Positions 20,213 through 34,482 of a stretch of DNA of 64,000 bases are shown one piece after another (within the stretch, counting starts at the first letter, position 1; every line of letters starts with the position of its first letter). The stretch spans positions 8,172-72,171 of the forward strand of contig JBKOXA010000074.1 in the NCBI GenBank assembly GCA_046724685.1. The letters are read 5' to 3'. Below the pieces are notes generated by a model. It had not been told where the DNA came from and did not search any database. It saw nothing but the letters and a program-made list of their open reading frames with translations. A program made the position numbers and the translations under genes. The stretch comes from Acidobacteriota bacterium. Its GTDB lineage: Bacteria > Acidobacteriota > Terriglobia > Acidiferrales > UBA7541.

Positions 20213-22021
20213 GTGTTCTGGAACATGGTGGAGACTTTCACCTCGATTGTGGGAAGGCTGCGCGCCGGTCGCGTGCGGCTGTTATGGCTCGTATTGGGCG
20301 CCATGCTGCTCGTTAGTCCCCTGCCTCTTGTTCTGTATCACCGGCAAGTTCTGAAGCTGAGCCAGGACAAGCTGGTGGACACCGAGCGTGTGCAGCAGAC
20401 GGAGCTCACCCGTTCACTCGCGCAGGAGCTGCAGCAGTTTGAATCCAACGTCACGCAACAACTGACGAGTGATCGGCAGATCCTGGTCCTAACCGACGCG
20501 ATCCAGGACATCGAGGATCCCACGGCGGAGCCGAAAGTTACACGTCTTCTGGAAAATTCCGTCGAGAGCAATCCGTCGACATTTCTTTATCTGACGGCGG
20601 TGGGGAAGACCGGTAAAGGCACCAGCGCGTCGCAGGGAAATTTTCGCGCGGACAAGGATCCTTTCGTCAGCAAGGCGCTGCAGCGTGCTTTCATCACCTG
20701 CATGCAGTCACCACAGCTGGGTTCGGTGAAGTTTCGCAGCGATCCATTGGCGCTCGACCCCGATAACCAGCCGGCCTTCGTGGTCGCCATTCCGCTGACG
20801 GCGAAAGACCAGTTCACGGGGATGATAGCGGCCGTCGTTTCACTGAATCCAATTCAGCATCGGCTGAAAGACGCGAGCGTCCGCGGCCGGAGCGTTTTTG
20901 TGGTCGATCATCAAGGGCACATTGTCGCCCACTGGGACACGCCGAAATTCACACCCGGAGAAGATGTCAGTTCGACATCGACGGTCGTGGCTCGCGTGCG
21001 ATCCCTTCCCCAGGAGCTTCGCAGCACGGAAACGATGCGCTTCTCGGAAAAAGAAGGCAACCGCAAGGTGGAGATGATCGGAACGTACAGCACGTTCCCG
21101 GAAGTGAATTGGGCCGTGATTGCGCAGCGGAGCCTTTCCGAGGCGCGCGCCGACGCCGGGGTTACCGAGCTGAATCGCCAGGCGCTCACGTTCGTAAGCA
21201 TCGTCGTACTGATCGCCATCATCGTCGGTTACTTTTTCGCCGTTGCGATCAGCCAGCCGATTCACGGACTCGCAGCTTCAACGCGCGCCATCAGCCGGGG
21301 TGAATTCCATCAGCGCACCAAAGTACAAGGCGCAACCGAAATCAGCGAGCTCGCCGAAAATTTCAACAAGATGGCCGGCGACATCGAAGAGTACATTGAA
21401 AAACTCAAAGAAGCCGCCGAAGCCAATCGCGAACTCTTTCTTGGTTCGATCCGCATGCTGGCCGCCGCCATCGACGAGAAGGACCCTTACACCCGAGGCC
21501 ATTCCGGGCGTGTAGCCAAATATTCCACGTTGATTGGACGCGAGCTCGGGCTTTCTGAAGAGGAGCTCGACAAGCTGAGGATCGCCGCTTTGCTGCATGA
21601 CGTCGGAAAAATCGGCGTCGACGATCGCGTTTTGAAGAAGCCCGGTGCTTTGACACCCGACGAGTTCGACTTGATGAAGCAGCACACCGTCAAAGGCGCA
21701 AACATCATGCGTCCCGTTTCACAACTGAAGGAGATGCTGCCCGGGATCGAACTTCACCACGAGCATATGGACGGGCACGGCTATCCATATGGCCTCACGG
21801 CAGCAAAGATTCCGCTGATGGCGCGGATCATTGCCGTGGCGGACACGTTGGACGCCATGACCACTAACCGGCCCTATCAGACCGCAATGGATCTGGAATT
21901 TGCGCTCGCGCGCATCAAGACGCTGACGGGCACAAAGTTCGACGCAGTAATTGTCGGGGCTCTGGAAGCCTCCATCACGGGCGGCAAACTCCGGCTGACC
22001 GCCATCGAAGTCCAAGTCTAA
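20213..22021 (+). CDS. Membrane-bound HD-GYP phosphodiesterase with a periplasmic Cache-like sensor and a HAMP domain
   Basis: Two TM helices flank a large extracytoplasmic region. HAMP (EISELAENFNKMA), YTRGHSGRV, LHDVGKIG, HHEHMDGHGYPYGL, IAVADTLDAMTTNRPY. Confidence 0.9.
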   Translation: MFWNMVETFTSIVGRLRAGRVRLLWLVLGAMLLVSPLPLVLYHRQVLKLSQDKLVDTERVQQTELTRSLAQELQQFESNVTQQLTSDRQILVLTDAIQDIEDPTAEPKVTRLLENSVESNPSTFLYLTAVGKTGKGTSASQGNFRADKDPFVSKALQRAFITCMQSPQLGSVKFRSDPLALDPDNQPAFVVAIPLTAKDQFTGMIAAVVSLNPIQHRLKDASVRGRSVFVVDHQGHIVAHWDTPKFTPGEDVSSTSTVVARVRSLPQELRSTETMRFSEKEGNRKVEMIGTYSTFPEVNWAVIAQRSLSEARADAGVTELNRQALTFVSIVVLIAIIVGYFFAVAISQPIHGLAASTRAISRGEFHQRTKVQGATEISELAENFNKMAGDIEEYIEKLKEAAEANRELFLGSIRMLAAAIDEKDPYTRGHSGRVAKYSTLIGRELGLSEEELDKLRIAALLHDVGKIGVDDRVLKKPGALTPDEFDLMKQHTVKGANIMRPVSQLKEMLPGIELHHEHMDGHGYPYGLTAAKIPLMARIIAVADTLDAMTTNRPYQTAMDLEFALARIKTLTGTKFDAVIVGALEASITGGKLRLTAIEVQV

Positions 22022-22109
22022 GCGCGCAGCCCTTACGCAAGGGCCACGGCCTCCGCGTTGCTTGTTCACAACGGCCTCGTCGCTTCATCTGCTACACTTT
22101 TAGCTGAAT

Positions 22110-23075
22110 ATGATTTCACTGTTTGGCAAACCGGAAAAAGCAACGGAGCCCTCGCTGTTGGAGCGCCTGAAGGCTTCGGTCACCAAGACGAAAGAGGCGC
22201 TCGCTGAAACTGTCGACACTGTCTTCCTGGGCCAAAAGCAGATTGATCCTGTGGCACTGAAACATCTGGAAACAGCGTTGCTTTCGGCGGATCTTGGCGT
22301 CAAGACGACGCGGGAAATTCTGGATTCGGTAAAGGAGAAACTGGACCGTAATGCGCTCTCCGATACCTCGCAATTGAAGCGTGAGATCAAGTCGCACGTG
22401 ACACGAATCCTGCAGTCACCGAACGGAACCGGCAAAGAGGCCGGCGGAGCCAACGGCGACAAAGAGCCGCGTGTCGTCTTTATTGTGGGCGTGAACGGCG
22501 CAGGTAAAACCACTAGCATCGGCAAACTTGCCCATCGCATGCGCCAACAGAATCTCAATGTAGTGCTGTGCGCCGCCGACACGTTTCGCGCTGCTGCCAT
22601 CGAACAACTGGAAATTTGGGCACGTCGTAACGGCGTCGAGGTCGTCAAGCAGAAATCCGGATCCGATCCGGCGGCCGTGGTCTTCGATGCAATGGCCGCG
22701 GCAAAGGCCCGCAACGCCGACGTGGTTCTGGTGGACACCGCTGGGCGCCTGCATACAAAATCGAATTTGATGGCGGAGCTCGAAAAGATGAAGCGCACCG
22801 CAGCCAAAGTGATTCCTGGCGCACCGCATGACGTCTTGCTGGTGATGGATGCGACCACCGGGCAAAACGGGCTGGCCCAGGCGCGCGAATTCACCGGCGT
22901 AGTCGGCGTCACGGGAATTGTGCTCACCAAACTCGACGGCACCGCGAAGGGCGGCATCGTGGTCGCGATTTCGCGCGAACTCGGTTTGCCGATTCGCTTT
23001 GTCGGCACCGGCGAGCAAATCGACGACCTGGTTCCGTTCGATGCCGAAACATACGCCGCTTCCCTTTTCAACTAG
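22110..23075 (+). CDS. ftsY: Signal recognition particle receptor FtsY
   Basis: [32 protein letters not shown]. Confidence 0.96.
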
Positions 23076-23078
23076 CTC

Positions 23079-24197
23079 ATGAATGAGCGTGACATTCGCT
23101 TCATGGAGCGCGCGCTCGAACTTGCGCGCAAGGGCGTCGGTCTGGCGAGCCCAAATCCCACCGTCGGCTGCATCATCGTCGGGCAAGGGGTTCACAGCGG
23201 CCAAATTGTCGGCGAAGGGTTTCATCAATATGACAGGCGCAATCACGCGGAAATTGTCGCTCTCGAAACCGCCGGAGAAAGAGCTCGCGGAGCGACAGCC
23301 TACGTCACGCTGGAGCCGTGCAACATCGCAGGGCGGACAGGTCCGTGTACCGAAGCCCTGATGAAGGCAGGGATCGCGCGTGTGGTCGCTGCGACGCAAG
23401 ACCCAAATCCCAAGGTGGCAGGACGTGGATTGGATGCATTGCGCGCCGCGGATATCATCGTTGATTCCGGGATTTGTGAATCCGAAGCGCAGCGCCTGAA
23501 TGACGGATTTGCCTGCTGGATCCGCACGGGCCGGCCGTTCGTCACGTTAAAATCCGCGATGACGCTGGACGGGCAGCTCACAATTGCCAATCAACGCAAA
23601 TCCAAAAAACGCGAATGGATCAGCTCCGAAGACTCCCGCACGGAAGTACAAAGGCTTCGCCACGGTTCGGACGCGCTGCTTACGGGCATCGGCACAATTC
23701 TCGCCGATGATCCGCTTCTCACCGACCGCAGCGGCATGCCGCGCAGGCGCCGTCTTTTGCGCGTCGTCCTCGACTCCAAGCTGCGCCTTTCGCCAAGTTC
23801 GCGAATCGTGAAATCCGCGGACAAGGACCTTCTGGTGTTCACCGCCGCCCCGCTCAAATCCGCGAAGGCTCTCAAACTGCAAGATGAAGGGGTTGAGATC
23901 GTGCAGGTTCGGGCGAAGCTCGGAATGCTTGACCTGAAAATGGTTCTGCGCGAACTCGGCGAGCGGCAGATTCTGAACGTATTGCTTGAAGCGGGGCCAC
24001 GTCTGAATGGCGCAACTCTGTCGGCGCAAGTTGTGGACCGGATATTTTTGTTTTACGCCGCGAAGCTAGCGGGCCACACCACAACTCCGTTCGCAGCGGG
24101 AGCCGCCGCAAGACTGGATTTACGGCAAATGGCGTTTCGCACTTTTGGCCCGGACTTTGCCGTGGATGCCCTGCTCCATAACCATTTCAATGCTTGA
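23079..24197 (+). CDS. ribD: Bifunctional riboflavin deaminase/reductase RibD
   Basis: SPNPTVG, HAE, TLEPC...GPC zinc motifs; KSAMTLDG and GIGTILADDPLLT reductase motifs. Confidence 0.95.
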   Translation: MNERDIRFMERALELARKGVGLASPNPTVGCIIVGQGVHSGQIVGEGFHQYDRRNHAEIVALETAGERARGATAYVTLEPCNIAGRTGPCTEALMKAGIARVVAATQDPNPKVAGRGLDALRAADIIVDSGICESEAQRLNDGFACWIRTGRPFVTLKSAMTLDGQLTIANQRKSKKREWISSEDSRTEVQRLRHGSDALLTGIGTILADDPLLTDRSGMPRRRRLLRVVLDSKLRLSPSSRIVKSADKDLLVFTAAPLKSAKALKLQDEGVEIVQVRAKLGMLDLKMVLRELGERQILNVLLEAGPRLNGATLSAQVVDRIFLFYAAKLAGHTTTPFAAGAAARLDLRQMAFRTFGPDFAVDALLHNHFNA

Positions 24198-24305
24198 CGT
24201 TCCCGGTCCTGGTTGGTGGATTTCCGAAACTTGCGCTAAGCTTTAATGGAAAGCTCTAAGGGCTGACTTCCTCGCATATTCTTCACGATCGTTGAGGTAA
24301 TTCAA

Positions 24306-25796
24306 ATGAGCGCCACAGCAGTTTCAGATATCCGAGTTCCGCATTTCATCGCAGGAGAGTGGGTCAACTCCAATTCGACGGAGTGGCAGGACCTGGTGAA
24401 CCCCGCAACGCACGCGTCGCTCGGAAAGGTTCCTCTGGCCAGCATTGCGGAGGTAAACGCCGCGGTGGAGGCCGCTGCAGCCGCGTTTCCGGATTGGCGC
24501 CGCACTCCGGCCGAGGACCGCATCCAGCCGCTCTTCAAATTGAAGATGCTACTTGAAGAGCACATCGACGAACTCGCGCGCCTGATCACGATCGAAAACG
24601 GAAAAACCTTCGCCGAAGCGAAAGCCGAGCTTCGCCGCGCGATTGAAAACGTCGAGGTGGCGTGCGGCATTCCGATGATGATGCAGGGCTACAACCTTGA
24701 AGACGTCGCGCGCGGCATCGACGAAATCATGATTCGACAGCCTATGGGGGTCGTAGCGGCCATCACCGCCTTCAATTTTCCGGCGATGATTCCTTTCTGG
24801 TTCTTGCCCTACGCGATCGCAACCGGCAACACGATGGTACTGAAGCCAAGCGAGCGTGTACCGCTTACCATGAAGCGCGTGTTTGAGCTGCTGCAGCAAA
24901 TCGGCTTGCCCAAAGGCGTTGTGAACCTGGTGAACGGCGGCAAGGCCGCCGTGGACACGATTTTGGATCATCCGAAGGTTCGAGCAGTCAGCTTCGTCGG
25001 CTCGACGCCGGTTGCGAAATACATTTATGCTCGGGCCACAGCCAGTGGCAAGCGCGCGCAATGCCAGGGTGGAGCGAAAAATCCGGTAATTGTGCTGCCG
25101 GATGCGGATATGACAATGACCACCAACATCATCAGCGACAGCGCATTTGGCTGCGCGGGCCAACGGTGTCTGGCCGTTTCCGTTGCTGTCGCTATCGGTG
25201 ACGCGCAGAAGACTTTTCGCGATGCGATTGCGGAGTCCGCGTCAAAACTTCGGGTCGGCAACGGCCTAGAAGAAGGTGTCCAGATGGGCCCGGTGATCAC
25301 TCCGCAGAGCAAATCGCGGATTGAAACGCTGATCGGCGAGGGTGAAAAGTCAGGCGCAAAGATTTTGGTGGATGGTCGGAACACGAAAATCCAGGGCTAT
25401 GAGGCTGGCAACTTCGTGAAGCCGACGATTCTCGATGGTGTTCCCATCGAGAGCGAACTCGCGCACACGGAAATCTTCGGGCCGGTGCTGAGCCTCGTCC
25501 ACGCCGAGGATTTGGACCAAGCGATGTCGTTCCTAGAAAAGAATCCTTTCGGCAATCAGGCTTCGCTCTTCACTTCCAGCGGCTCGGCTGCGCGCCGCTT
25601 CCGCTATGAGGCGCCAGCCGGAAACATCGGCATCAACATCGGCGTGGCCGCTCCCATGGCATACTTTCCCTTCAGCGGCTGGAAGGACAGCTTTTTCGGC
25701 GACCTGCACGGCCAGGGGCGCGACGCCATCGAGTTCTACACCGACAAAAAAGTTGTGGTCGAGCGCTGGGCGAAAGAACACTCGCGCAAGTTCTAG
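24306..25796 (+). CDS. mmsA: CoA-acylating (methyl)malonate-semialdehyde dehydrogenase
   Basis: [74 protein letters not shown]. Confidence 0.92.
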
Positions 25797-25903
25797 GACC
25801 TAGATCCTATCCGGTTTTTCCCGTCTGCCGGTGCGGCGGTGATGATGATGTGCGTGTGCGTGTGCTCGTAAGTCTTCTGTGATAAAACTCCTCTCTGGTC
25901 ATT

Positions 25904-27232
25904 GTGTCCTCTGAACCCAGCCCTTCTTCGACGAAACCCGCCGCAAAGGCCGGCATTTTTTCGTTCGTTTTCGTAATGTATTCCTACACTACGGGTGGAC
26001 CCTTCGGCCTCGAGGCGCAAGTCACCACTTCCGGCCCCGGCGTCACCCTTCTCTATCACCTGCTGATTCCTTTCTTCTGGTGCATCCCGATTTCTCTCGT
26101 GGCCGCAGAACTCACTACTGCGATGCCTGTGCAGGGCGGCTTCTATCGCTGGGTGCGCGCGGCGTTTGGCGATTTCTGGGGATTTCTCGCCGGCTGGTGG
26201 AACTGGACCGCGTCGTTTCTTCTCGGCAGCGCGTACGCAGTCCTCTTTGCCGACTATCTTTCCCCCTGGTTTCCCGCGCTGCAGGGCTGGCGTCACACGC
26301 TCATCGCGGTTGCACTCGTTGCGCTCATCACCTGGATCAATGTTCGCGGAATTCAGCTCGTTGGACGCATCTCCACGATTCTCGAGATCGCCGTTCTGGT
26401 TCCGATTCTGGCCATGGTCGCAATCGGACTCGCGCACTGGCGTCATAATCCGTTTGTTCCGCTCACGCCACCGCACAGGCCGTGGTACGAAGTCTTCGGC
26501 GTCGGCCTCGCTCTCGGAGTCTGGCTTTACTCCGGGTATGAGCAGCTTTCATCGGTTGCGCAGGAAGTTGAGAATCCGCGTCGCAATTACCCGCTGGCAC
26601 TCGCGATTGTGGTTCCCATGTCCATTGCGGCGTATTTTCTTCCGACGTTTGCGTCGCTCGCGGCCCTCAACAACTGGCAGGACTGGAAGGAGGGTTACTT
26701 CACCACGGCGGCGGGTCTTTTGGGTGGTCCCTTGCTGGGTATTGCCATGACACTCGCGGCGATGATCGCCAACGTTTCGCTGCTGAACGCAACCGTTTTG
26801 GCCACAACGCGCATGCCATTCGCGATGGCGGAAGACGGTTTTCTGCCCGTTCGCCTGACGCACCTACACCAGCGCTACGGAACGCCGGCCGCCGCGATTA
26901 TTGTTTCCGGCCTCGTGTATGCCCTGCTTACGATCCATAATCTCGCGGAGCTTATTACTGTTTACGCGTGGTTGCGGGTGGCCACCACCGTCATGACTGC
27001 GCTTTCGCTCTGGAAGCTCCGCAAAACCCGGCCGTCAATGGAGCGGCCATTTCTGATCCCGGGTGGAAAATTTGGCTTGTTTTATTCGGTCGCCGCGCCT
27101 GTTCTTATGGGAATTGTCGCATTCGCTGGCAGCATTCTGAGTGCTGGCCACTTTGTCCGCGTCTGGGGGCCAGTGGGGATTCTTCTAGGCCCGCTGGCTT
27201 ACTTGTTACTTCGCCGCCGCCTGCCTAGCTGA
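25904..27232 (+). CDS. APC family permease, probably a polyamine transporter (PUT/RMV1-like)
   Basis: About 12 TM helices and the TM1 motif YSYTTGGPFGLE, resembling the GGP[FY]GxE of eukaryote-type polyamine uptake transporters. Confidence 0.8.
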   Translation: MSSEPSPSSTKPAAKAGIFSFVFVMYSYTTGGPFGLEAQVTTSGPGVTLLYHLLIPFFWCIPISLVAAELTTAMPVQGGFYRWVRAAFGDFWGFLAGWWNWTASFLLGSAYAVLFADYLSPWFPALQGWRHTLIAVALVALITWINVRGIQLVGRISTILEIAVLVPILAMVAIGLAHWRHNPFVPLTPPHRPWYEVFGVGLALGVWLYSGYEQLSSVAQEVENPRRNYPLALAIVVPMSIAAYFLPTFASLAALNNWQDWKEGYFTTAAGLLGGPLLGIAMTLAAMIANVSLLNATVLATTRMPFAMAEDGFLPVRLTHLHQRYGTPAAAIIVSGLVYALLTIHNLAELITVYAWLRVATTVMTALSLWKLRKTRPSMERPFLIPGGKFGLFYSVAAPVLMGIVAFAGSILSAGHFVRVWGPVGILLGPLAYLLLRRRLPS

Positions 27233-28520
27233 CCCAATCCAAAAACTTGTACCACGCGCCGGCAAATGGCAAGAACCACGGCTTGCCGTTGTAAAGTCCC
27301 AGCGGCGCACCGGGAAACGGAATTCCCGCAAACGGATTATCATCCTTGCCCGTGAGGATTGCTTCGGCAATCTTTTTTCCGAGCAGGGTCGCCATGGCCA
27401 CACCGTGTCCGGCATAACCCACGGAAAAATACATGCCATCCATTTTCCCTGCATGTGGCATGATGTCGAACGCAAAATCCAGGGTCCCACCCCAAACGAA
27501 CTCGACTCTCGTCTGGCCCAGTTGCGGATAGACTTTGATCATTCCATCGCGCAAGATCCGAGCGCTCTCACGAACCGTGTTTTCGTTCTCCGGGAAAAAT
27601 GCCGCGCGGCCGCCGAATAGCATCCTTTTATCGGGTGTCAGTCGGTAGTAATACAAATAATTCTTCGAATCGTAGATCATACGATTGCGGGGACTCAATT
27701 CCGTGGCAAGTATTTCAGGCAGTATTTGGGTCACAATGATAAAGGAGCCGATTGGGATAATTCTTCGCTGTAGAGATCTTGTGATTCGGCTTGTGTAGCC
27801 GCTCGTAGCGACTAGGATTTCGCGGGCATGCAGCGCGCCACGGGACGTGGTCACGTTCCATCCTGGTCTGCCATCGCGCGATGCACGCTGTAAATCGGTC
27901 ACACATGTTTTTTCGTGAATCTCGGCGCCCGCTCGCGCCGCGGCGAACCCTAGACCCGATACATACCGCGCTGGATTTACTCCCGCGCTGACCTCATCCA
28001 CGATCCCGCCGTGATAAATCGCCGAACCGATCTCGCCGGGCAGGTCGGCTTTTTCGACAATCCGCAGCTTGTGCGCAAATTCGCGCTCAATTGTTTCCGC
28101 ACCGCGACGAAATTCCTCAAAATGTCTTGCCTTACAGGCGACTTCGAGGTGTCCGCATCGCGAAAAATCGCAAGCGATGTTTTCCTCGCGGACAATCGTT
28201 TCGACGAAGTCGATGGACTCAAGCGAAGCCGCGTACATCCGCTGGGTGGCTTCCCGGCCGTATCGCGCAACGAGGGTCGGCGTCCCGAGCTTCAGCCCGC
28301 TCAAAACCATGCCGCCGTTGCGGCAACTTGCGCCCCAGCCCACGTTTTCGGCTTCGAGGACGGCGACCTTTGCGCCACGCTGGGCCAAGGTTCGCGCCGC
28401 AGATAACCCTGTAAACCCACCACCAATGACGGCAACATCTGCAGACTGCGGCAACTCGCGGGGAGGAATCTTTGGCGGTTGAAGAGTGGTCAGCCAGAAA
28501 TTTCTCTGTGCGGGAGTCAT
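27225..28520 (-). CDS. FAD-dependent oxidoreductase, PuuB/gamma-glutamylputrescine oxidase-like (DAO family)
   Basis: [49 protein letters not shown]. Confidence 0.8.
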
Positions 28521-30448
28521 ACCTTGTGGCTGCCCGCAGCACCACGAATCCCTGGCAGCTCCTGCACCGCGCGATACGCTTCGTCAATTGCTGCGTCGGT
28601 GTAGGCTCTGGCTGCCGAATCGGAATTGGCGATCGTGATGTTTCCGAATGGCTTCCGCCCAATCACGTTTGGCCGCGGACCTCCCGGCAAGTCGCGATCC
28701 GAATACCAGTCATATTCATATGCGTAGCCATGGGCCCAGCGATTCACGGTAATCGACTGAACGTCGCGCGCCGCGTCGAAGCCGACATCTCCCAGCATTC
28801 GCTGCAACTGTTCGCGAGTCTTCCGTTCAATAGCTTCGAACGTTGTGCTCAGCAATTCATAGCGTCCCGCTCGGTATTGGTCTTGCCGCGGCGCACCCGG
28901 ACTGCAGGGGGCTCGCAGCATGAACAACACAGCAGGTTCTTCCGGCTTGCTTGGAAACTTGTATTGGCCGATGCTGACCGGAAAATCCAGTGCCACGAGT
29001 GAGTGATATCCGCCGGGCGCAATGATCTGGTGAATACCCAGCGTCGCGAAAGGTTTCCAATTGCGGATCGCAACATGGGTGTAGAGGAACGGCGCCTTCA
29101 CAGAGTAATGCAACGCCTTCTTCTGCGTTTCAGGTAGCTCGGGACACAAGTACGGCACCATCGCGTTGTAGCAAGCCAGCACGCAGTGGCGTGCATTTGC
29201 TCGCTTCAACTTTCCTTCGCGCACGTATGCCACACGAACCACGGGTGGAGCTCCAGCCCCATGATTGTGCTTTGCATTCACCACCGTACTGCCGAGCCGT
29301 ATGCGCACTGCGCTCCCCTCGACGTCGAGCTTGCTGTAATCCGCCTTTGCAGTGACGACGTCTTCCATGGTGCTCCCCGGAACGCTTCCGGGGACCAGTT
29401 GACGAACCAGGAGGCGAGCAATCGTCGCGTTTCCGTCCGGGAAGTGAAAAATATACGGCTCGCCTCTTTCCGGATCGCCCAGGCCCAATCCGTCGAAAGC
29501 TGCGTAGGAAAACGAACCGTAGTCGTCCGGATTCTCGTAGCAGGCGAACGCGGAGATCGCTTCAATCCCGACGGCAAACAGGTCGTGCGAATATTTCTGG
29601 AAAAAGGCCAGCGATTCGGGCAACGCTCCGCAATACCTGATCAGAAAATCCGCGTAGCTGACGGTTTTGAGGAAGGCAATTTTCTGCGCTCTGGTTTTTC
29701 CCGCCAGATAGTCCTTTTTCTGCGTATAGAGCCGGGCGATGTCTTTCCGCGCGGCGGCGGAAAGGGGCGCTTTTGCAAGAAAGTCCGCCCACGGTGTCGA
29801 ACCCACCCCTGGCACCAATTTGTCCTCGCCGAACGTTTCTTTGTCGAAGAAGCAGGCAGTGCCGAGGTTCGCGTAAAGTCTCTGATCGTAAGCCTGATAG
29901 AACTTCTCGACGTCGATGCCCAAGTCTTTCAGCAAAGCCTTCGCCACGTTGCTGTACTCGCCCGGGCTTTCGATCGCCTGCGCGCCGCCATTCGCAAGCA
30001 GCAGCCTTCCGCTGACTTCAAATTCATTTCGCCGCGCGTGCCCGCCGAAATCATCGTGATTGTCGAGGATCAGAATGCGCGGGTGTTTGCCAACGGATTT
30101 CCGATAAAAATACGCAGCTGCCAAACCGCTGATTCCGGCTCCGACCACAATAAGGTCATACGATTCCGCATCGTCCTCGACCGTTCCAAGCGCCTCCCAC
30201 GATTTTCCATCCCGCAACTTGTGCGCAGTTTCAAAAACCCGATTCTGGTCGCCGCGCAACCCGGTGAGCGCCGGCGGATACGCCGGCCGCTCACTGCCGC
30301 CCGTTTCCCCACCCGGGGCCCGCAGACCGAGCGTGGCGCCCTCCAACGCAGCAGCGCCCACCGCCATCGCCGCCCCGTCCAGAAAGTCACGGCGGGTGAT
30401 TTTGCGATGCATTCCGAGTTCCCGATCTCGCGAGTCTTCGGCCATCAA
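28517..30448 (-). CDS. Tat-exported flavoprotein, spermidine dehydrogenase (SpdH)-like
   Basis: TRRDFL twin-arginine motif, [15 protein letters not shown] motif, [44 protein letters not shown]. Confidence 0.78.
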
Positions 30449-31422
30449 TGAAACGCTGCCCCCAGCATGTCAATCATCAGGCGCACGGCAGTTTGCGCCG
30501 TGCGGCCGCTCGGGTCCCTGTAAGGATTCACCTCGACCACATCGAATCCCACAAGTTTTCCCTTTGCCGTGACACCCTTCAACAGCTCATCCAACTCACG
30601 AAAACTCAGGCCGTCTGGCTCCAGTGTTCCAGTTCCAGGTGCAAGTGTAGGATCCATGACATCGACGTCGAGGGAGATATAAATATTTTCGCTCGCAGGA
30701 ACCTGCGATAGCGCCCAATCCACGCCCTTCGCGTGAATTTGCTCGGAAGTCACAATCGCGGAGTGAATTTTTCGCGCATTGCCGATCGCTTCGGGATCAT
30801 TGGCGAGCCCGCGCATTCCGAGCTGCACAACCTTCTTCACATGCCGGAGTTTCGCTGCTCGGTTCACCCACGACGCATGGTCGAGGTTCCCGGGCTCACC
30901 GGTCCACGTGTCCAAGTGCGCGTCGAAATGAATCAGCGTCACATCCTTGTCGAGCGCTCGAACCACAGGAAAGGTGACGCTGTGATCGCCACCAAGGACA
31001 ATGGGAAACGCTGATTTCTCGATGATTTTCTTAACGGCGGCGGTGATCTTGTCGTCGGTCTGCGCCGGCACAGTCGGAAACACCAGAACGTCGCCGACAT
31101 CGGCCCAACGCTTGCCCTTCAGAACGGTTCGATCGCCGTCAATGTAGTAAAAGCCTTCGGTCAGATCGTGATTGTATTCTTGCGAACTTTCGCGCAAGTC
31201 TCGCGGGCCATAGCGTTCGCCGGGCTGGCCCCAAGTGCCTTCGTCGAACGGAATACCGAGAACGGCAAAATCGGCTTTCAAATCGTCGAGGTTTGTAACG
31301 TACGGCGCGCCGAGGAAGGTCCGTATTCCGACGAACGTCGGTTGCGATTGCCTGCTTGCGCCTGCGGACGAAAGAGTTATTGGCAGGCTCAAGGCGATGA
31401 GCGTCAGCACAAATCGTCGCAT
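30445..31422 (-). CDS. Agmatinase/ureohydrolase family protein with an N-terminal signal peptide
   Basis: [25 protein letters not shown] and VEVNP Mn-binding motifs. The N-terminus [22 protein letters not shown] looks like a Sec signal. Confidence 0.85.
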
Positions 31423-31566
31423 AAGGGAGTTCCTCTGGGCGTAATGTTACTAAATTTCAGTAAGGTTTTAGTAGCCGTCGCAATGGGACGGACTCGGTTT
31501 CTCGCTAAGGGCGTGATTGGGTCCAGACCCGCAAATGGGCTATCGTAAGAGTGGAGAGCTCACGGC

Positions 31567-32214
31567 ATGTTTACTGGCATCATCGAGCATCTCGGTACGA
31601 TTTCTCGCTTCGAAACGACTTCGAGTGACGGCAAACTCATCGTTCACGCGCCTTCGCTGGCGCGGCAGCTCGCAGTCTCCGCCAGCATCGCGGTTAATGG
31701 CTGCTGTCTGACGGTGGTTCATCATGATAACGAGAACTTTTCGGCTGATCTCTCGGGCGAAACACTTGCCAAGACGTCTTTTGCTTCTCTCAAGGCGGGA
31801 GTGCGGGTGAACCTCGAACAGCCTCTTACGGCAGGACGGGAATTTGGCGGTCATTTTGTGCTCGGCCATGTGGATGGCACGGCGCGAGTCGTTCACCTCA
31901 ACCCTGAAGGTGATAGCTGGCGTTATGGTGTGGAAATTCCACCGGATTTGGCGCGTTACGTAGTCTCGAAGGGCTCCATCACGATTGACGGAATCAGCCT
32001 CACTGTGGCCCGCTGGCAAGATCGGATTGCGGAAATCGCGGTGATTCCCTACACCTACGAACACACGAATATCCGCGATCGTGTTCCCGGCGATCAGGTC
32101 AATCTGGAGGCCGATATTTTGGGAAAATATATCGAGCGCTATCTGGGCCAGCGCGAATGGTCAATCGATTCGAGGCACCTTGGCGTGGACGACCTCATCC
32201 GCCAGGGCTTTTGA
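31567..32214 (+). CDS. ribE: Riboflavin synthase (alpha chain)
   Basis: MFTGII start, SIAVNGCCLTV, VNLEQPL, GGHFVLGHVDG, GSITIDGISLTV, VNLEADILGKY. Confidence 0.96.
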   Translation: MFTGIIEHLGTISRFETTSSDGKLIVHAPSLARQLAVSASIAVNGCCLTVVHHDNENFSADLSGETLAKTSFASLKAGVRVNLEQPLTAGREFGGHFVLGHVDGTARVVHLNPEGDSWRYGVEIPPDLARYVVSKGSITIDGISLTVARWQDRIAEIAVIPYTYEHTNIRDRVPGDQVNLEADILGKYIERYLGQREWSIDSRHLGVDDLIRQGF

Positions 32215-32239
32215 TCGTTGTCGAGTCCGGCGCGTTTCG

Positions 32240-33676
32240 CTAAGCGACCTCTCGCCGCCGTTGCCTTGCACCTCGAAAATACAAAATCAAACCTAACGCC
32301 ACGGCCGCAAGGGTGGTGCCAATCACTTTGGTTACAAACAGCTGGCGATTCGATGAATCGCCTGGCGGAAAAATCGACACGATGATGGACAACAATGTTA
32401 CGGAAAACGCCAGAATGCAGGCAATCCAGACGCCGACCTTACCGCCAGGGATCAGGACGGCCTGAGGATTTTCACTGCGATCGGGGCGTCCCGCAAGTTT
32501 GATGGCCGCGGCGAACATGTACAGGAACGGGATAAAATAAAGAATGATGGTTATATCGATGACAATCTGATAGGCGCCGCGGGTAGTTTCGTTGACTTGG
32601 CTGAGCAGCAACACCAGCGCCGAGGCGACAGCTTGTACGATGATGGAAATATACGGCGTGCGCCATCGCGGGTGAACTTTTCCAAATGCTTTCGGCAAAT
32701 ATCTGTCGATTCCGACAACGAACGGTACGCGCGCTATTCCAGCGACGGTACTTCCAACGCCACCAGCGTTGCCGACCGTAACCAAGCAGGCAGCGAGCAC
32801 CCCGACAAAGCCGATCTTCAGCGCAACGGAACCGACCGTAATTGCGTGGAAAACACCGCTCTTAGGATCAACATCAACGGAGGGAACGAGCGAGAGAACG
32901 GAGAACGTTCCAACAATATACATCGCGGCGATCAGGGCGGCGGCGGTCAATGCCGCCCGAGGCAGCGTTCTTCGCGGGTCGCGGATCTCGCCGCTCATCG
33001 CGGATACCAATTCGAGTCCAGTGAACGCAAATGCGATCTGAGACCAGAAATTTACTGTGTCCCAGTTCCAGACAGGCATCATATTCGTCCAGGTAAAGTG
33101 CGTGGCCGAGCCGTGCTCGAGCCACAACACGCCGGCGAGACCCACGAGAATCAACAAGGGCAGATACGTGGAAACACCCCCTGCGTTTTGCAGCCATTTG
33201 CCGATGTTGAGGCCGATGATATTCAGTATCACCGCCACAAACAGCAATCCGAGGGAGCCTGCGAGCAGAAATGTCCTGTCCTGCGACAACTCGACGCCTT
33301 TGTGACCGATAACGTAGGCGCTCATCGAAGTGCTGGCCAGCAACAAACCGGGAAAATAAAAGATCGTATAGATCCAATAGGTCCATCCGGCAACAAATCC
33401 GTGAAAATCACCAAACGCCTCTTTGGACCATACGTACAAGCCGCCTTCCTCCGGAAAACGCGAGGACAATTCATTGATAACCAACGCCATGGGCACAAAG
33501 AAAAGAACTGCAGCAAGAACCCACAAACTGATTGAGGGCGTGCCATTGTGCGCCGCAGCTGCAATCCAGCGCGGACCGAGCACAGTTGCAATATTGAAGA
33601 GGAGCACGTCCCAGAAACCCATTTCGCGGCGAAGTTGACTGCGCGGATCGGACGAGCCGACCGAGGACTGGCTCAC
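32240..33676 (-). CDS. APC family amino acid/polyamine permease
   Basis: About 12 TM helices, ELSSRFPEEGGLYVW, FAFTGLELVS, FGKVHPRWRTP. Confidence 0.88.
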   Translation of the reverse strand: MSQSSVGSSDPRSQLRREMGFWDVLLFNIATVLGPRWIAAAAHNGTPSISLWVLAAVLFFVPMALVINELSSRFPEEGGLYVWSKEAFGDFHGFVAGWTYWIYTIFYFPGLLLASTSMSAYVIGHKGVELSQDRTFLLAGSLGLLFVAVILNIIGLNIGKWLQNAGGVSTYLPLLILVGLAGVLWLEHGSATHFTWTNMMPVWNWDTVNFWSQIAFAFTGLELVSAMSGEIRDPRRTLPRAALTAAALIAAMYIVGTFSVLSLVPSVDVDPKSGVFHAITVGSVALKIGFVGVLAACLVTVGNAGGVGSTVAGIARVPFVVGIDRYLPKAFGKVHPRWRTPYISIIVQAVASALVLLLSQVNETTRGAYQIVIDITIILYFIPFLYMFAAAIKLAGRPDRSENPQAVLIPGGKVGVWIACILAFSVTLLSIIVSIFPPGDSSNRQLFVTKVIGTTLAAVALGLILYFRGARQRRREVA

Positions 33677-34482
33677 AGGACCACGTCCATCGCGGGGATC
33701 AATTGGTCCTGCATGCGGAAATTGTGAAAGAAGAGATCGGGCGAGTTTTCAAATTCCGTCCACGAGGAGAACACGCTAGCCTCGCCCTCCTGGAGGAAAA
33801 CGATGGTGTCGGCCAATTTTTTCGCGAGGTGGGTGTCGTGGGTAACGACGATCGAAGTTTTGTGGAATTTTTCCTTCAGCCGCAAAATCAGGTCGCCCAT
33901 GTGCGCGGCCATAATCGGGTCGACCATGGTGGTCGGCTCGTCGTACAGAATCGCTTCGGGATTCTGCGCGAGAGCCCGCGCGATCGCCACAGCCCGTTTC
34001 GTTCCCGTGGACAATTCGCTCGGCACTTTGTCCAAAACATCGTCCACCTCCAACTCCTTGGCGAGTTTGTCGGTGTACGCCTCGACATCGGCGTCGGTAA
34101 CTCCGGGCTGGTCCCTCAGCGGAAACGCAATGTTGTCGCGGACCGTCAGGGAATCGAAGAGCGCGCCGGACTGGAACACCATCGTCACCTTTCGCCGCAC
34201 CCCGTAGAACTCCTGCTCGGAGTAACTTGTGACGTCCACACCATCAACGAAAACCTGGCCGGAGTCTGCGCGCAGAAATCCCATGATGTGCTTCAGCGAG
34301 ACGGATTTTCCCACGCCACTTCGCCCCATGATTACGCAAGTCTCTCCGCGCTTTACGGCAAAGCTTACTTGCTTGAGCACCGGTCGCTCGTCGAAGGCTT
34401 TTGAAACCTGGCGGAATTCAAAGTAATTGACGGAATTTCCCCCCGTCGCGCCCGGCAGATTCGTGGTCGACGTCTCGCTCAC
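33673..34482 (-). CDS. ABC transporter ATP-binding protein (MlaF/Ttg2A-like)
   Basis: Walker A GRSGVGKS, Q-loop VFQSGALFDSLTV, signature LSTGT, Walker B ILYDEP, VTHD. The probable start is GTG at 34482. Confidence 0.88.
   Translation of the reverse strand: MSETSTTNLPGATGGNSVNYFEFRQVSKAFDERPVLKQVSFAVKRGETCVIMGRSGVGKSVSLKHIMGFLRADSGQVFVDGVDVTSYSEQEFYGVRRKVTMVFQSGALFDSLTVRDNIAFPLRDQPGVTDADVEAYTDKLAKELEVDDVLDKVPSELSTGTKRAVAIARALAQNPEAILYDEPTTMVDPIMAAHMGDLILRLKEKFHKTSIVVTHDTHLAKKLADTIVFLQEGEASVFSSWTEFENSPDLFFHNFRMQDQLIPAMDVVL

What the first reader, a model, noticed from the sequence alone, without database searches (positions are those of the whole stretch)
30445..31422. Ureohydrolase with a cleavable Sec signal peptide
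Agmatinases and arginases are normally cytoplasmic Mn enzymes. This one starts [22 protein letters not shown]|SRQSQ and keeps all the metal-binding motifs. A periplasmic guanidino hydrolase releasing urea outside the cell would be unusual, and its substrate (agmatine, guanidinobutyrate, guanidine, or a xenobiotic such as metformin or guanylurea) is open.
Basis: partly seen in the sequence, partly recalled or inferred. Interest (0 to 1): 0.65.

Follow-up and report, generated by a model that had tools for sequence, protein, structure and literature searches.

The report
Exported agmatinase-like enzyme in Acidobacteria
A soil Acidobacterium carries an intact agmatinase-type urea-releasing enzyme with a conserved export signal, so it most likely works outside the cytoplasm, where no enzyme of this family has been characterised, and here it heads an operon with an exported polyamine dehydrogenase.

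Summary
Window 30445-31422 (minus strand) is a 325-aa ureohydrolase (PF00491, E 2e-71). All six metal ligands and the catalytic His are present, and a Shine-Dalgarno site precedes the ATG.

Residues 1-22 form a Sec-type signal: MRR, a hydrophobic core, then AGA|S. Comparative evidence supports export:
- 106 of 110 orthologues have a signal-like N-terminus that varies in sequence and ends just before a conserved mature N-terminus.
- Only 7 of 110 contain an RR pair, so the signal is Sec-type, not Tat.
- The mature part lacks cysteine in 109 of 110, against a mean of 3.4 Cys in signal-less relatives.
- The signal-bearing clade is monophyletic and almost entirely Terriglobia.

The clade is patchy: 11 of 60 genomes in the genus and about 3 of 400 in the phylum sample.

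The closest structure is the Deinococcus agmatinase 1WOG. Active-site loops resemble agmatinases rather than guanidino-acid hydrolases.

In this genome the gene heads an operon with a Tat-exported SpdH homologue (E 1e-154) and a PuuB-like oxidase. Sister genomes have the same operon without it.

No urease was found, so the amine product is probably the useful one.

Verdict: a new exported variant of a known family. Substrate and metal remain untested. The scan has noted signal-bearing ureohydrolases on other DNA.

The parts
31430..31435 (-). Shine-Dalgarno-like GAGGAA, 7 nt upstream of the ATG
   Evidence: Read directly.
31357..31422 (-). Signal peptide, residues 1-22: n-region MRR, h-region [14 protein letters not shown], c-region SSAGA. 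Predicted signal peptidase I cut after AGA.
   Evidence: AF2 gives a lone low-confidence helix detached from the fold.
30448..31356 (-). Mature ureohydrolase domain, residues 23-325, no cysteine
   Evidence: PF00491 E 2.2e-71. AF2 pLDDT 93.5. Foldseek best hit 1WOG, TM 0.92.
30979..30993 (-). GGDHS motif (metal ligand H147)
30910..30924 (-). DAHLD motif (metal ligands D167, H169, D171), followed by the T172-W173 ... D181-H182 loop A
30652..30669 (-). DVDVMD motif (metal ligands D252, D254)
28517..30448 (-). Operon partner: spermidine dehydrogenase (SpdH) homologue with Tat motif TRRDFL (30380-30397). The ORF overlaps the ureohydrolase stop, but the true start may be Met13 (ATG 30412), leaving a 32-nt gap.
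   Evidence: PDB 7D9F E 1e-154. Tat motif in 29 of 30 genus orthologues.
27225..28520 (-). Third operon gene: cytoplasmic FAD oxidoreductase of the PuuB type. Its ATGA overlaps the SpdH stop.
   Evidence: PF01266 E 1e-63. 31% identity to E. coli PuuB, E 5e-60.
25904..27232 (+). Convergent APC-family amino acid/amine permease
   Evidence: PF13520 E 2e-49. Weak similarity to PuuP.
24306..25796 (+). MmsA-family CoA-acylating (methyl)malonate-semialdehyde dehydrogenase
   Evidence: TIGR01722, 581 bits against a cut-off of 448.

Best explanation
The gene encodes a catalytically competent binuclear-metal ureohydrolase of the agmatinase branch. It is made with a Sec signal peptide, cut after Ala22, and folds and takes up its metal in the periplasm (or beyond) of a diderm Acidobacterium. 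There it hydrolyses an external guanidino compound, most likely agmatine or a closely related guanidino-amine, to urea plus the free amine.

In this genome and its closest relative, the gene was added to the head of an older operon. That operon encodes a Tat-exported spermidine dehydrogenase homologue and a cytoplasmic PuuB-like oxidase. An APC permease and an MmsA-type dehydrogenase lie next to it. Together they form a front end outside the cytoplasm that converts agmatine and polyamines into simple amines or aminoaldehydes, which are then imported and oxidised.

Urea is probably a by-product, because no urease or urea carboxylase was found.

Shown here: the ORF, the signal features and their conservation, intact catalytic residues, the fold, operon structure and synteny. 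Inferred: actual export and cleavage, the substrate, the metal, and the pathway link.
For: Signal peptide:
- The n/h/c architecture with AGA|S and the SD site are present.
- 106 of 110 orthologues keep signal properties while the sequence varies, and only 7 of 110 contain RR.
- The mature part has no Cys in 109 of 110, against a mean of 3.4 in 88 signal-less relatives.
- The signal-bearing clade is monophyletic, SH-aLRT 100.
- AF2 leaves residues 1 to about 25 outside a confident fold (pLDDT 93.5).

Enzyme:
- PF00491 matches and the ligands are invariant.
- The catalytic His182 aligns with E. coli SpeB His163, and T172-W173 aligns with T154-Y155 (residue roles from PMC8125230).
- The best sequence and structure match is the D. 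radiodurans agmatinase 1WOG.
- The carboxylate-capping Arg72 of GbuA aligns with an invariant Tyr83 (role from PMC9772407).

Pathway:
- SpdH homologue, E 1e-154, with TRRDFL. The Tat motif is in 29 of 30 genus orthologues. The Tat signal of P. aeruginosa SpdH is noted in PMC11107197.
- PuuB-like oxidase and MmsA-family dehydrogenase.
- G461, G427 and G436 have ribE|SpdH-DAO without the ureohydrolase. G000 and G421 have it inserted between ribE and SpdH.

Nitrogen context:
- No urease, urea carboxylase or SpeA scored over cut-off in the 94%-complete genome.
- The only other intact ureohydrolase is a true cytoplasmic arginase.
Against: - No experimental evidence of export, cleavage, activity or metal content exists, and SignalP was not run.
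- The protein scores below NCBIfam's agmatinase cut-offs (158 against 174, and 192 against 302).
- Many clade-specific residues lie near the active site: Y93 for a conserved D, W185 for P, L267 for P. The substrate may therefore not be agmatine.
- The link to SpdH is seen in only 2 or 3 of about 66 loci. Elsewhere the gene sits beside unrelated housekeeping genes, so the pathway link is lineage-specific at best.
- A Sec route means folding outside the cytoplasm, where Mn competes poorly with Zn and Cu (MncA/CucA paradigm, PMC4192464). No TerC-type Mn-loading protein was found.
- TatC was not found in this assembly. It is present in 17 of 21 relatives, and at least 20 canonical Tat signals occur in the genome, so this is probably an assembly gap.
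Confidence: 0.55

Rival explanations
1. The enzyme is exported, but the operon link is incidental. It is a stand-alone scavenger of some external guanidino compound, and its position upstream of SpdH in this lineage reflects a neutral insertion into a promoter-proximal site, not a shared pathway.
For: Of about 66 clade loci, only L004/G421 (and partial L037) share the SpdH-DAO neighbours. Other loci sit next to unrelated genes such as a glycogen debranching enzyme, catalase, ArgRS, an M17 peptidase and methylmalonyl-CoA mutase. SpdH homologues are near-universal in the genus (55 of 61), while the ureohydrolase is in 11 of 60.
Against: The gene is on the same strand and tightly spaced (overlap or 32 nt), with no terminator-like site between the two genes. 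Both products carry export signals. All five neighbouring genes fit amine catabolism.
Confidence: 0.25
2. It is an exported guanidino-acid hydrolase (4-guanidinobutyrate, 3-guanidinopropionate or taurocyamine) that yields GABA or beta-alanine plus urea outside the cell.
For: GpuA and GbuA are good structural matches (TM about 0.8). A GadC-like Gln/GABA antiporter homologue lies at 32240-33676, and an MmsA-type dehydrogenase suited to beta-alanine breakdown is adjacent.
Against: The Arg that caps the carboxylate in GbuA (R72) and in human GDAH (R105) aligns with an invariant Tyr (PMC9772407). The residues after DAHxD are T-W, as in agmatinases (T-Y), not V/T-N-D as in GbuA and GpuA. 1WOG is clearly the closest structure.
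Confidence: 0.12
3. It is a Ni-dependent hydrolase of guanidine, or of a xenobiotic such as metformin.
For: The guanidinases 7ESR and 9FEK are the second-best matches (E 1e-42 and 1e-36, TM 0.84-0.85).
Against: No guanidine riboswitch or any other Rfam element lies upstream. Identity is only 31-33%. Known Ni loading of these enzymes depends on cytoplasmic accessory proteins (my knowledge of Funck et al. 2022), which a Sec substrate could not use. Metformin hydrolases are more distant still (25-28% identity).
Confidence: 0.05
4. The protein is not exported. The hydrophobic N-terminus is an uncleaved membrane anchor or a mis-called start, and the enzyme acts at or inside the cytoplasmic membrane.
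For: No experimental localisation exists. The window protein has an Arg at +2 after the predicted cut and a Pro in the h-region. No sigma-70-like promoter was detected upstream.
Against: No alternative start codon lies downstream of the hydrophobic stretch and before the conserved core. The h-region is about 12 residues, too short for a stable transmembrane helix, and is followed by small -3/-1 residues. The signal pattern is conserved in 106 of 110 orthologues, and the mature part is Cys-free in 109 of 110.
Confidence: 0.07

Closest known systems
Deinococcus radiodurans agmatinase (PDB 1WOG)
   Same: It is the best sequence match (E 5e-52) and best structural match (TM 0.92, rmsd 1.9 A, 36% identity). 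It has the same six metal ligands and a similar loop B (RGL..DPEA).
   Different: 1WOG has no signal peptide. It has Asn where this protein keeps the catalytic His182. This clade has a longer, aromatic-rich loop (H85 ... F91-Y92-Y93) and no cysteines.
Escherichia coli agmatinase SpeB (PDB 7LOL/7LOX; PMC8125230)
   Same: The T-aromatic pair after DAHxD (T154-Y155 against T172-W173) and the D-H catalytic pair (D162-H163 against D181-H182) are the same, and it is a binuclear Mn ureohydrolase.
   Different: Identity is 32%. SpeB is cytoplasmic and biosynthetic, paired with speA. This genome has no SpeA over cut-off, and this protein scores below the SpeB family cut-offs.
Pseudomonas aeruginosa spermidine dehydrogenase pathway (SpdH, PDB 7D9F; PMC11107197, PMC9397018)
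   Same: The operon partner is a full-length SpdH homologue (E 1e-154) with a twin-arginine signal, like P. aeruginosa SpdH. It represents polyamine cleavage outside the cytoplasm.
   Different: No ureohydrolase is described as part of the Pseudomonas SpdH pathway. Here an exported ureohydrolase is placed in front of it.
Ni-dependent guanidine hydrolases (Synechocystis GdmH 7ESR, Nitrospira inopinata guanidinase 9FEK) and metformin hydrolase MfmAB
   Same: They share the superfamily fold and ligand set and rank second in similarity.
   Different: They are cytoplasmic, about 50 residues longer at the N-terminus, Ni-dependent and often riboswitch-controlled. None of these features was seen here.
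MncA (Tat) versus CucA (Sec) periplasmic cupins of Synechocystis (PMC4192464)
   Same: They pose the same question: how does an exported protein with Mn-type ligands obtain Mn outside the cytoplasm?
   Different: MncA solves it by folding in the cytoplasm and using Tat. This ureohydrolase clade uses Sec, so it must be metallated after export.

Membership tests
Ureohydrolase superfamily (arginase fold, PF00491) | Profile match over the curated cut-off | tested here: met
   241 bits against a cut-off of 22, covering profile positions 1-279 of 280.
Ureohydrolase superfamily (arginase fold, PF00491) | Six binuclear-metal ligands (H, D, H, D, D, D in GGDHS, DAHxD, DxDxxD) | tested here: met
   H147, D167, H169, D171, D252 and D254 are invariant in the clade.
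Ureohydrolase superfamily (arginase fold, PF00491) | Alpha/beta arginase fold | tested here: met
   AF2 pLDDT 93.5, pTM 0.90. The top 50 Foldseek PDB hits are all ureohydrolases.
Agmatinase SpeB (TIGR01230 equivalog; NF002564 subfamily) | Score over the curated family cut-off | tested here: not met
   158.3 against 174.3, and 192.4 against 302. These are the top-ranking families, but the scores are below threshold.
Agmatinase SpeB (TIGR01230 equivalog; NF002564 subfamily) | Agmatine-specific hydrolysis to putrescine and urea | not testable with these tools
   Only loop residues could be compared: T172-W173 and D181-H182 match the SpeB pattern.
Sec-dependent signal peptide cleaved by signal peptidase I | Positive n-region, 7-15 residue hydrophobic core, small residues at -3 and -1 | tested here: met
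   The sequence reads MRR / [14 protein letters not shown] / A-G-A|S. 106 of 110 orthologues meet the n+h rule, with AxG, AxA, LxA or VxA before the conserved Gln.
Sec-dependent signal peptide cleaved by signal peptidase I | Actual translocation and cleavage | not testable with these tools
   Indirect support only: a Cys-free mature part in 109 of 110 orthologues and an N-terminal helix detached from the fold.
Twin-arginine (Tat) signal peptide | Conserved S/T-R-R-x-F-L-K motif | tested here: not met
   The window protein has RR, but only 7 of 110 orthologues do. The close relatives P0004 and P0006 lack it.
Guanidino-acid hydrolases (GbuA, GpuA, human GDAH) | Arg from the neighbouring subunit capping the substrate carboxylate (GbuA R72) | tested here: not met
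   The phmmer alignment puts an invariant Tyr83 opposite R72, and there is no Arg at residues 81-85. This is a loop region, so the alignment is approximate.
Ni-dependent guanidine hydrolase (GdmH type) | Guanidine riboswitch control and cytoplasmic Ni-loading accessory proteins | tested here: not met
   No Rfam match with E below 0.7 in 22000-34000. Accessory genes were not searched for.

The most novel reading that the evidence does not exclude
The clade is a Sec-exported binuclear-metal hydrolase that is metallated outside the cytoplasm, either with Mn against the Irving-Williams order or with a different metal. Its true substrate is a guanidino-polyamine such as N1-aminopropylagmatine or arcaine. 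With the Tat-exported SpdH homologue, it would then form a previously undescribed periplasmic pathway that dismantles guanidino-polyamines before uptake.
Probability: 0.15. Interest if true: 0.75.

Novelty: new variant of a known kind. Interest (0 to 1): 0.55.

Why it matters
All characterised bacterial agmatinases, arginases, guanidino-acid hydrolases and guanidinases act in the cytoplasm.

A conserved exported clade would have several consequences:
- Some soil Acidobacteria would remove the guanidino group from external compounds before uptake and release urea into the soil solution. That matters for nitrogen cross-feeding to urease-positive neighbours.
- It offers a natural test of how a Mn-type binuclear site is filled after Sec export. 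The known periplasmic Mn protein MncA avoids this problem by using Tat.
- The recruitment of the gene in front of a Tat-exported spermidine dehydrogenase operon suggests polyamine catabolism can begin in the periplasm with more than one enzyme.
- The mature enzyme is cysteine-free and adapted to life outside the cell, so it could be a robust biocatalyst or a urea-releasing reporter.

Tried and rejected
1. A conserved neighbourhood for the whole clade. I clustered the neighbours of 54 loci and no partner recurred in more than 12 loci. The recurring ones are unrelated housekeeping genes.
2. Riboswitch or other RNA control upstream. None was found.
3. Sigma-70 promoter or intrinsic terminator calls. 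These were uninformative, with no promoter hit upstream of the gene.
4. Urea use. There is no urease and no urea carboxylase over cut-off. In the genus, urease is in 6 of 60 genomes and in none of the 12 ureohydrolase-positive ones. The expected overlap is only about 1, so this is not significant.
5. A TerC-type Mn-loading protein (PMC10120614). Not found.
6. TatC was not found in the assembly. I do not read this as absence, because relatives have it and the genome encodes many Tat signals.
7. Base composition. The block shows no GC anomaly.
8. The first AF2 run on 13 near-identical sequences gave pLDDT 69.5 and was replaced by a run on 104 sequences.
10. Genomic context of the three other exported clusters (P0121, P0142, P0180). 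I did not look this up, because those proteins come from a search whose results the look-up tool does not accept.
11. The Streptomyces vesicle agmatinase (PMC4476819) has no predicted signal peptide, so it is not a precedent.
Full report
**1. Observation**

The ORF at 30445-31422 on the minus strand encodes 325 aa. The ATG at 31422 is preceded by GAGGAA (31435-31430) with a 7-nt spacer.

The only other start codons before the conserved core are GTG at codon 5 and TTG at codon 11. Both lie inside the signal. The next one is at codon 47, which would remove conserved core residues. A start downstream of the hydrophobic stretch is therefore excluded.

Pfam Arginase (PF00491) matches residues 50-320 at E 2.2e-71. 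GGDHS, DAHLD and DVDVMD are intact, and the six ligands are invariant in the clade.

**2. Is the signal real?**

SignalP was not on hand, so I used comparative tests.

- **Conserved properties, variable sequence.** The 120 closest homologues (73-100% identity) have N-termini that differ freely in sequence but keep the n/h/c pattern. All converge on the same mature start, Q-(S/A)-(Q/V)-P-T-F-V-G. Of 110 full-length members, 106 have a K/R n-region plus an 8-residue window with mean hydropathy of at least 2.0. The residues at -3/-1 before the conserved Gln are mostly AxG, AxA, LxA or VxA.
- **Sec, not Tat.** Only 7 of 110 contain an RR pair.
- **Cysteine loss.** The mature part contains no cysteine in 109 of 110 members. 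By contrast, 88 signal-less relatives average 3.4 Cys and only 7 have none. This is the expected mark of a protein that folds in an oxidising compartment.
- **Single origin.** In a library clustered at 50% identity, similarity falls from 57% (P0121, also signal-bearing) to 46% or less for proteins without any signal. In a quick ML tree the signal-bearing sequences form one clade (SH-aLRT 100, stem 0.49). A Tat-type relative (P0142) and a lipobox-type relative (P0180) fall elsewhere, which suggests independent gains. The careful tree search did not finish, so this is the quick tree.
- **Structure.** AF2 with a 104-sequence alignment gives pLDDT 93.5 and pTM 0.90. Residues 1 to about 25 form a low-confidence helix outside the fold.

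**3. What enzyme is it?**

The best solved relative by sequence is the Deinococcus radiodurans agmatinase 1WOG (E 5e-52). It is also the best by structure (TM 0.92, rmsd 1.9 A). Next come the Ni-dependent guanidinases 7ESR and 9FEK, then GpuA, GbuA and metformin hydrolase.

NCBIfam ranks the agmatinase families first, but the scores are below their cut-offs. I therefore do not file the protein as SpeB.

Alignment with E. coli SpeB, read against PMC8125230, shows two matches:
- The T-aromatic pair after DAHxD: T154-Y155 in SpeB, T172-W173 here.
- The D-H pair with the catalytic His: D162-H163 in SpeB, D181-H182 here.

The Arg that caps the substrate carboxylate in GbuA (R72; PMC9772407) aligns with an invariant Tyr83. 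These features favour a cationic tail such as agmatine over a guanidino acid.

The clade also has its own invariant residues near the site: W64, H85, Y93 where relatives have Asp, W185 where relatives have Pro, L267 where relatives have Pro, and R302. A related but different guanidino-amine therefore remains possible. No riboswitch lies upstream.

**4. Surroundings**

The next gene (28517-30448) is a full-length homologue of P. aeruginosa spermidine dehydrogenase SpdH (7D9F, E 1e-154). It carries a TRRDFL Tat motif, and the motif is present in 29 of 30 orthologues in the genus. PMC11107197 notes the same Tat signal in the Pseudomonas enzyme.

The SpdH ORF overlaps the ureohydrolase stop. However, the alignment with the Pseudomonas protein suggests its real start may be Met13 (ATG 30412), which would leave a 32-nt gap.

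The third gene (27225-28520) overlaps the SpdH stop by ATGA. It is 31% identical to E. coli PuuB (E 5e-60).

Convergent to these are an APC permease and an MmsA-family dehydrogenase (581 bits against a cut-off of 448). The whole block lies between ribD and ribE.

**5. Distribution and history**

A scan of one genome per species found about 66 loci with 54-87% identity. All are metagenome-assembled genomes and nearly all are Terriglobia.

| Sample | Feature | Count |
|---|---|---|
| Own genus | ureohydrolase orthologue | 11 of 60 |
| Phylum | orthologue at 60% identity or more | about 3 of 400 |
| Own genus | SpdH homologue, often 2-6 copies | 55 of 61 |

The neighbourhood is not conserved. Only L004/G421 (87% identity) and the partial L037 share this block.

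Three sister genomes (G461, G427, G436) have ribE followed directly by SpdH-DAO. G000 and G421 have the ureohydrolase between ribE and SpdH. The gene is therefore an add-on to an older operon, or it was lost three times.

**6. Physiology**

The 94%-complete genome gave the following results.

| Searched for | Result |
|---|---|
| Urease | none over cut-off |
| Urea carboxylase | none over cut-off |
| SpeA | none over cut-off |
| TerC | not found |
| Other PF00491 genes | a true cytoplasmic arginase, and an arginase-like protein with altered ligands |

In the genus, none of the 12 ureohydrolase-positive genomes has urease. The numbers are too small to be significant.

The likely benefit is therefore the amine product, with urea released outside.

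TatC was not found in this assembly. Relatives have it, and the genome encodes at least 20 canonical Tat signals, so I read this as an assembly gap.

**7. Open problem: the metal**

A Sec substrate folds after export, where Mn competes poorly with Zn and Cu. The periplasmic Mn protein MncA uses Tat for this reason (PMC4192464). In Bacillus, TerC proteins load Mn onto Sec-exported enzymes (PMC10120614). How this enzyme obtains its metal, and which metal it uses, is unknown.

**8. Literature and earlier notes**

Searches for agmatinase or ureohydrolase together with signal peptide or periplasm, and for six explicit phrases, found no characterised exported bacterial ureohydrolase. The library does not cover most subscription journals.

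Earlier first-reader notes of this scan describe the same block on this window. They also describe signal-bearing ureohydrolases in other genomes, which I did not check.

**9. Verdict**

This is a new exported variant of a known enzyme family. The substrate is plausible but untested, and the pathway link is specific to this lineage.

Noticed in passing
L003:1393-2379 (-), which is G000 contig C78: A third arginase-family paralogue (328 aa; TIGR01229 144 bits, below cut-off) has altered metal ligands: GGDCA instead of GGDHS, and DRDAD instead of DAHxD. It may be a pseudo-enzyme or use a different metal or chemistry.
   Followed up: partly
window 23079-24197 and 31567-32214; loci L112, L114, L115: ribD and ribE are separated by the 7.3-kb amine-catabolic block. 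In three sister genomes ribE is directly followed by SpdH-DAO without the ureohydrolase, so the block was built in steps.
   Followed up: partly
genus genomes G401-G467: SpdH-like dehydrogenases are present in 55 of 61 genomes of the genus, with up to 6 copies per genome and some tandem pairs (for example G436 C27, G427 C21, G459 C110). This is a large, unstudied expansion of a family characterised in very few organisms.
   Followed up: no
window 30410-30448: The peptide D-R-E-L-G-M just upstream of the Tat motif is conserved in almost all 30 genus orthologues. The Pseudomonas alignment suggests translation may start at that Met. The conservation could reflect a ribosome-binding region or a translated leader.
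   Followed up: no
whole genome G000: No TatC match was found in the 94%-complete assembly, although more than 20 ORFs carry canonical twin-arginine signals and 17 of 21 relatives have TatC. This is probably an assembly gap.
   Followed up: partly
window 27225-27232: The convergent APC permease and PuuB-like genes overlap by 8 nt at their 3' ends, leaving no room for separate terminators.
   Followed up: no
window 32240-33676 (-): A second APC transporter, just beyond ribE, is most similar to the GadC-type glutamine/GABA antiporter family (209 bits, below cut-off). It could exchange an amine product of the block.
   Followed up: no
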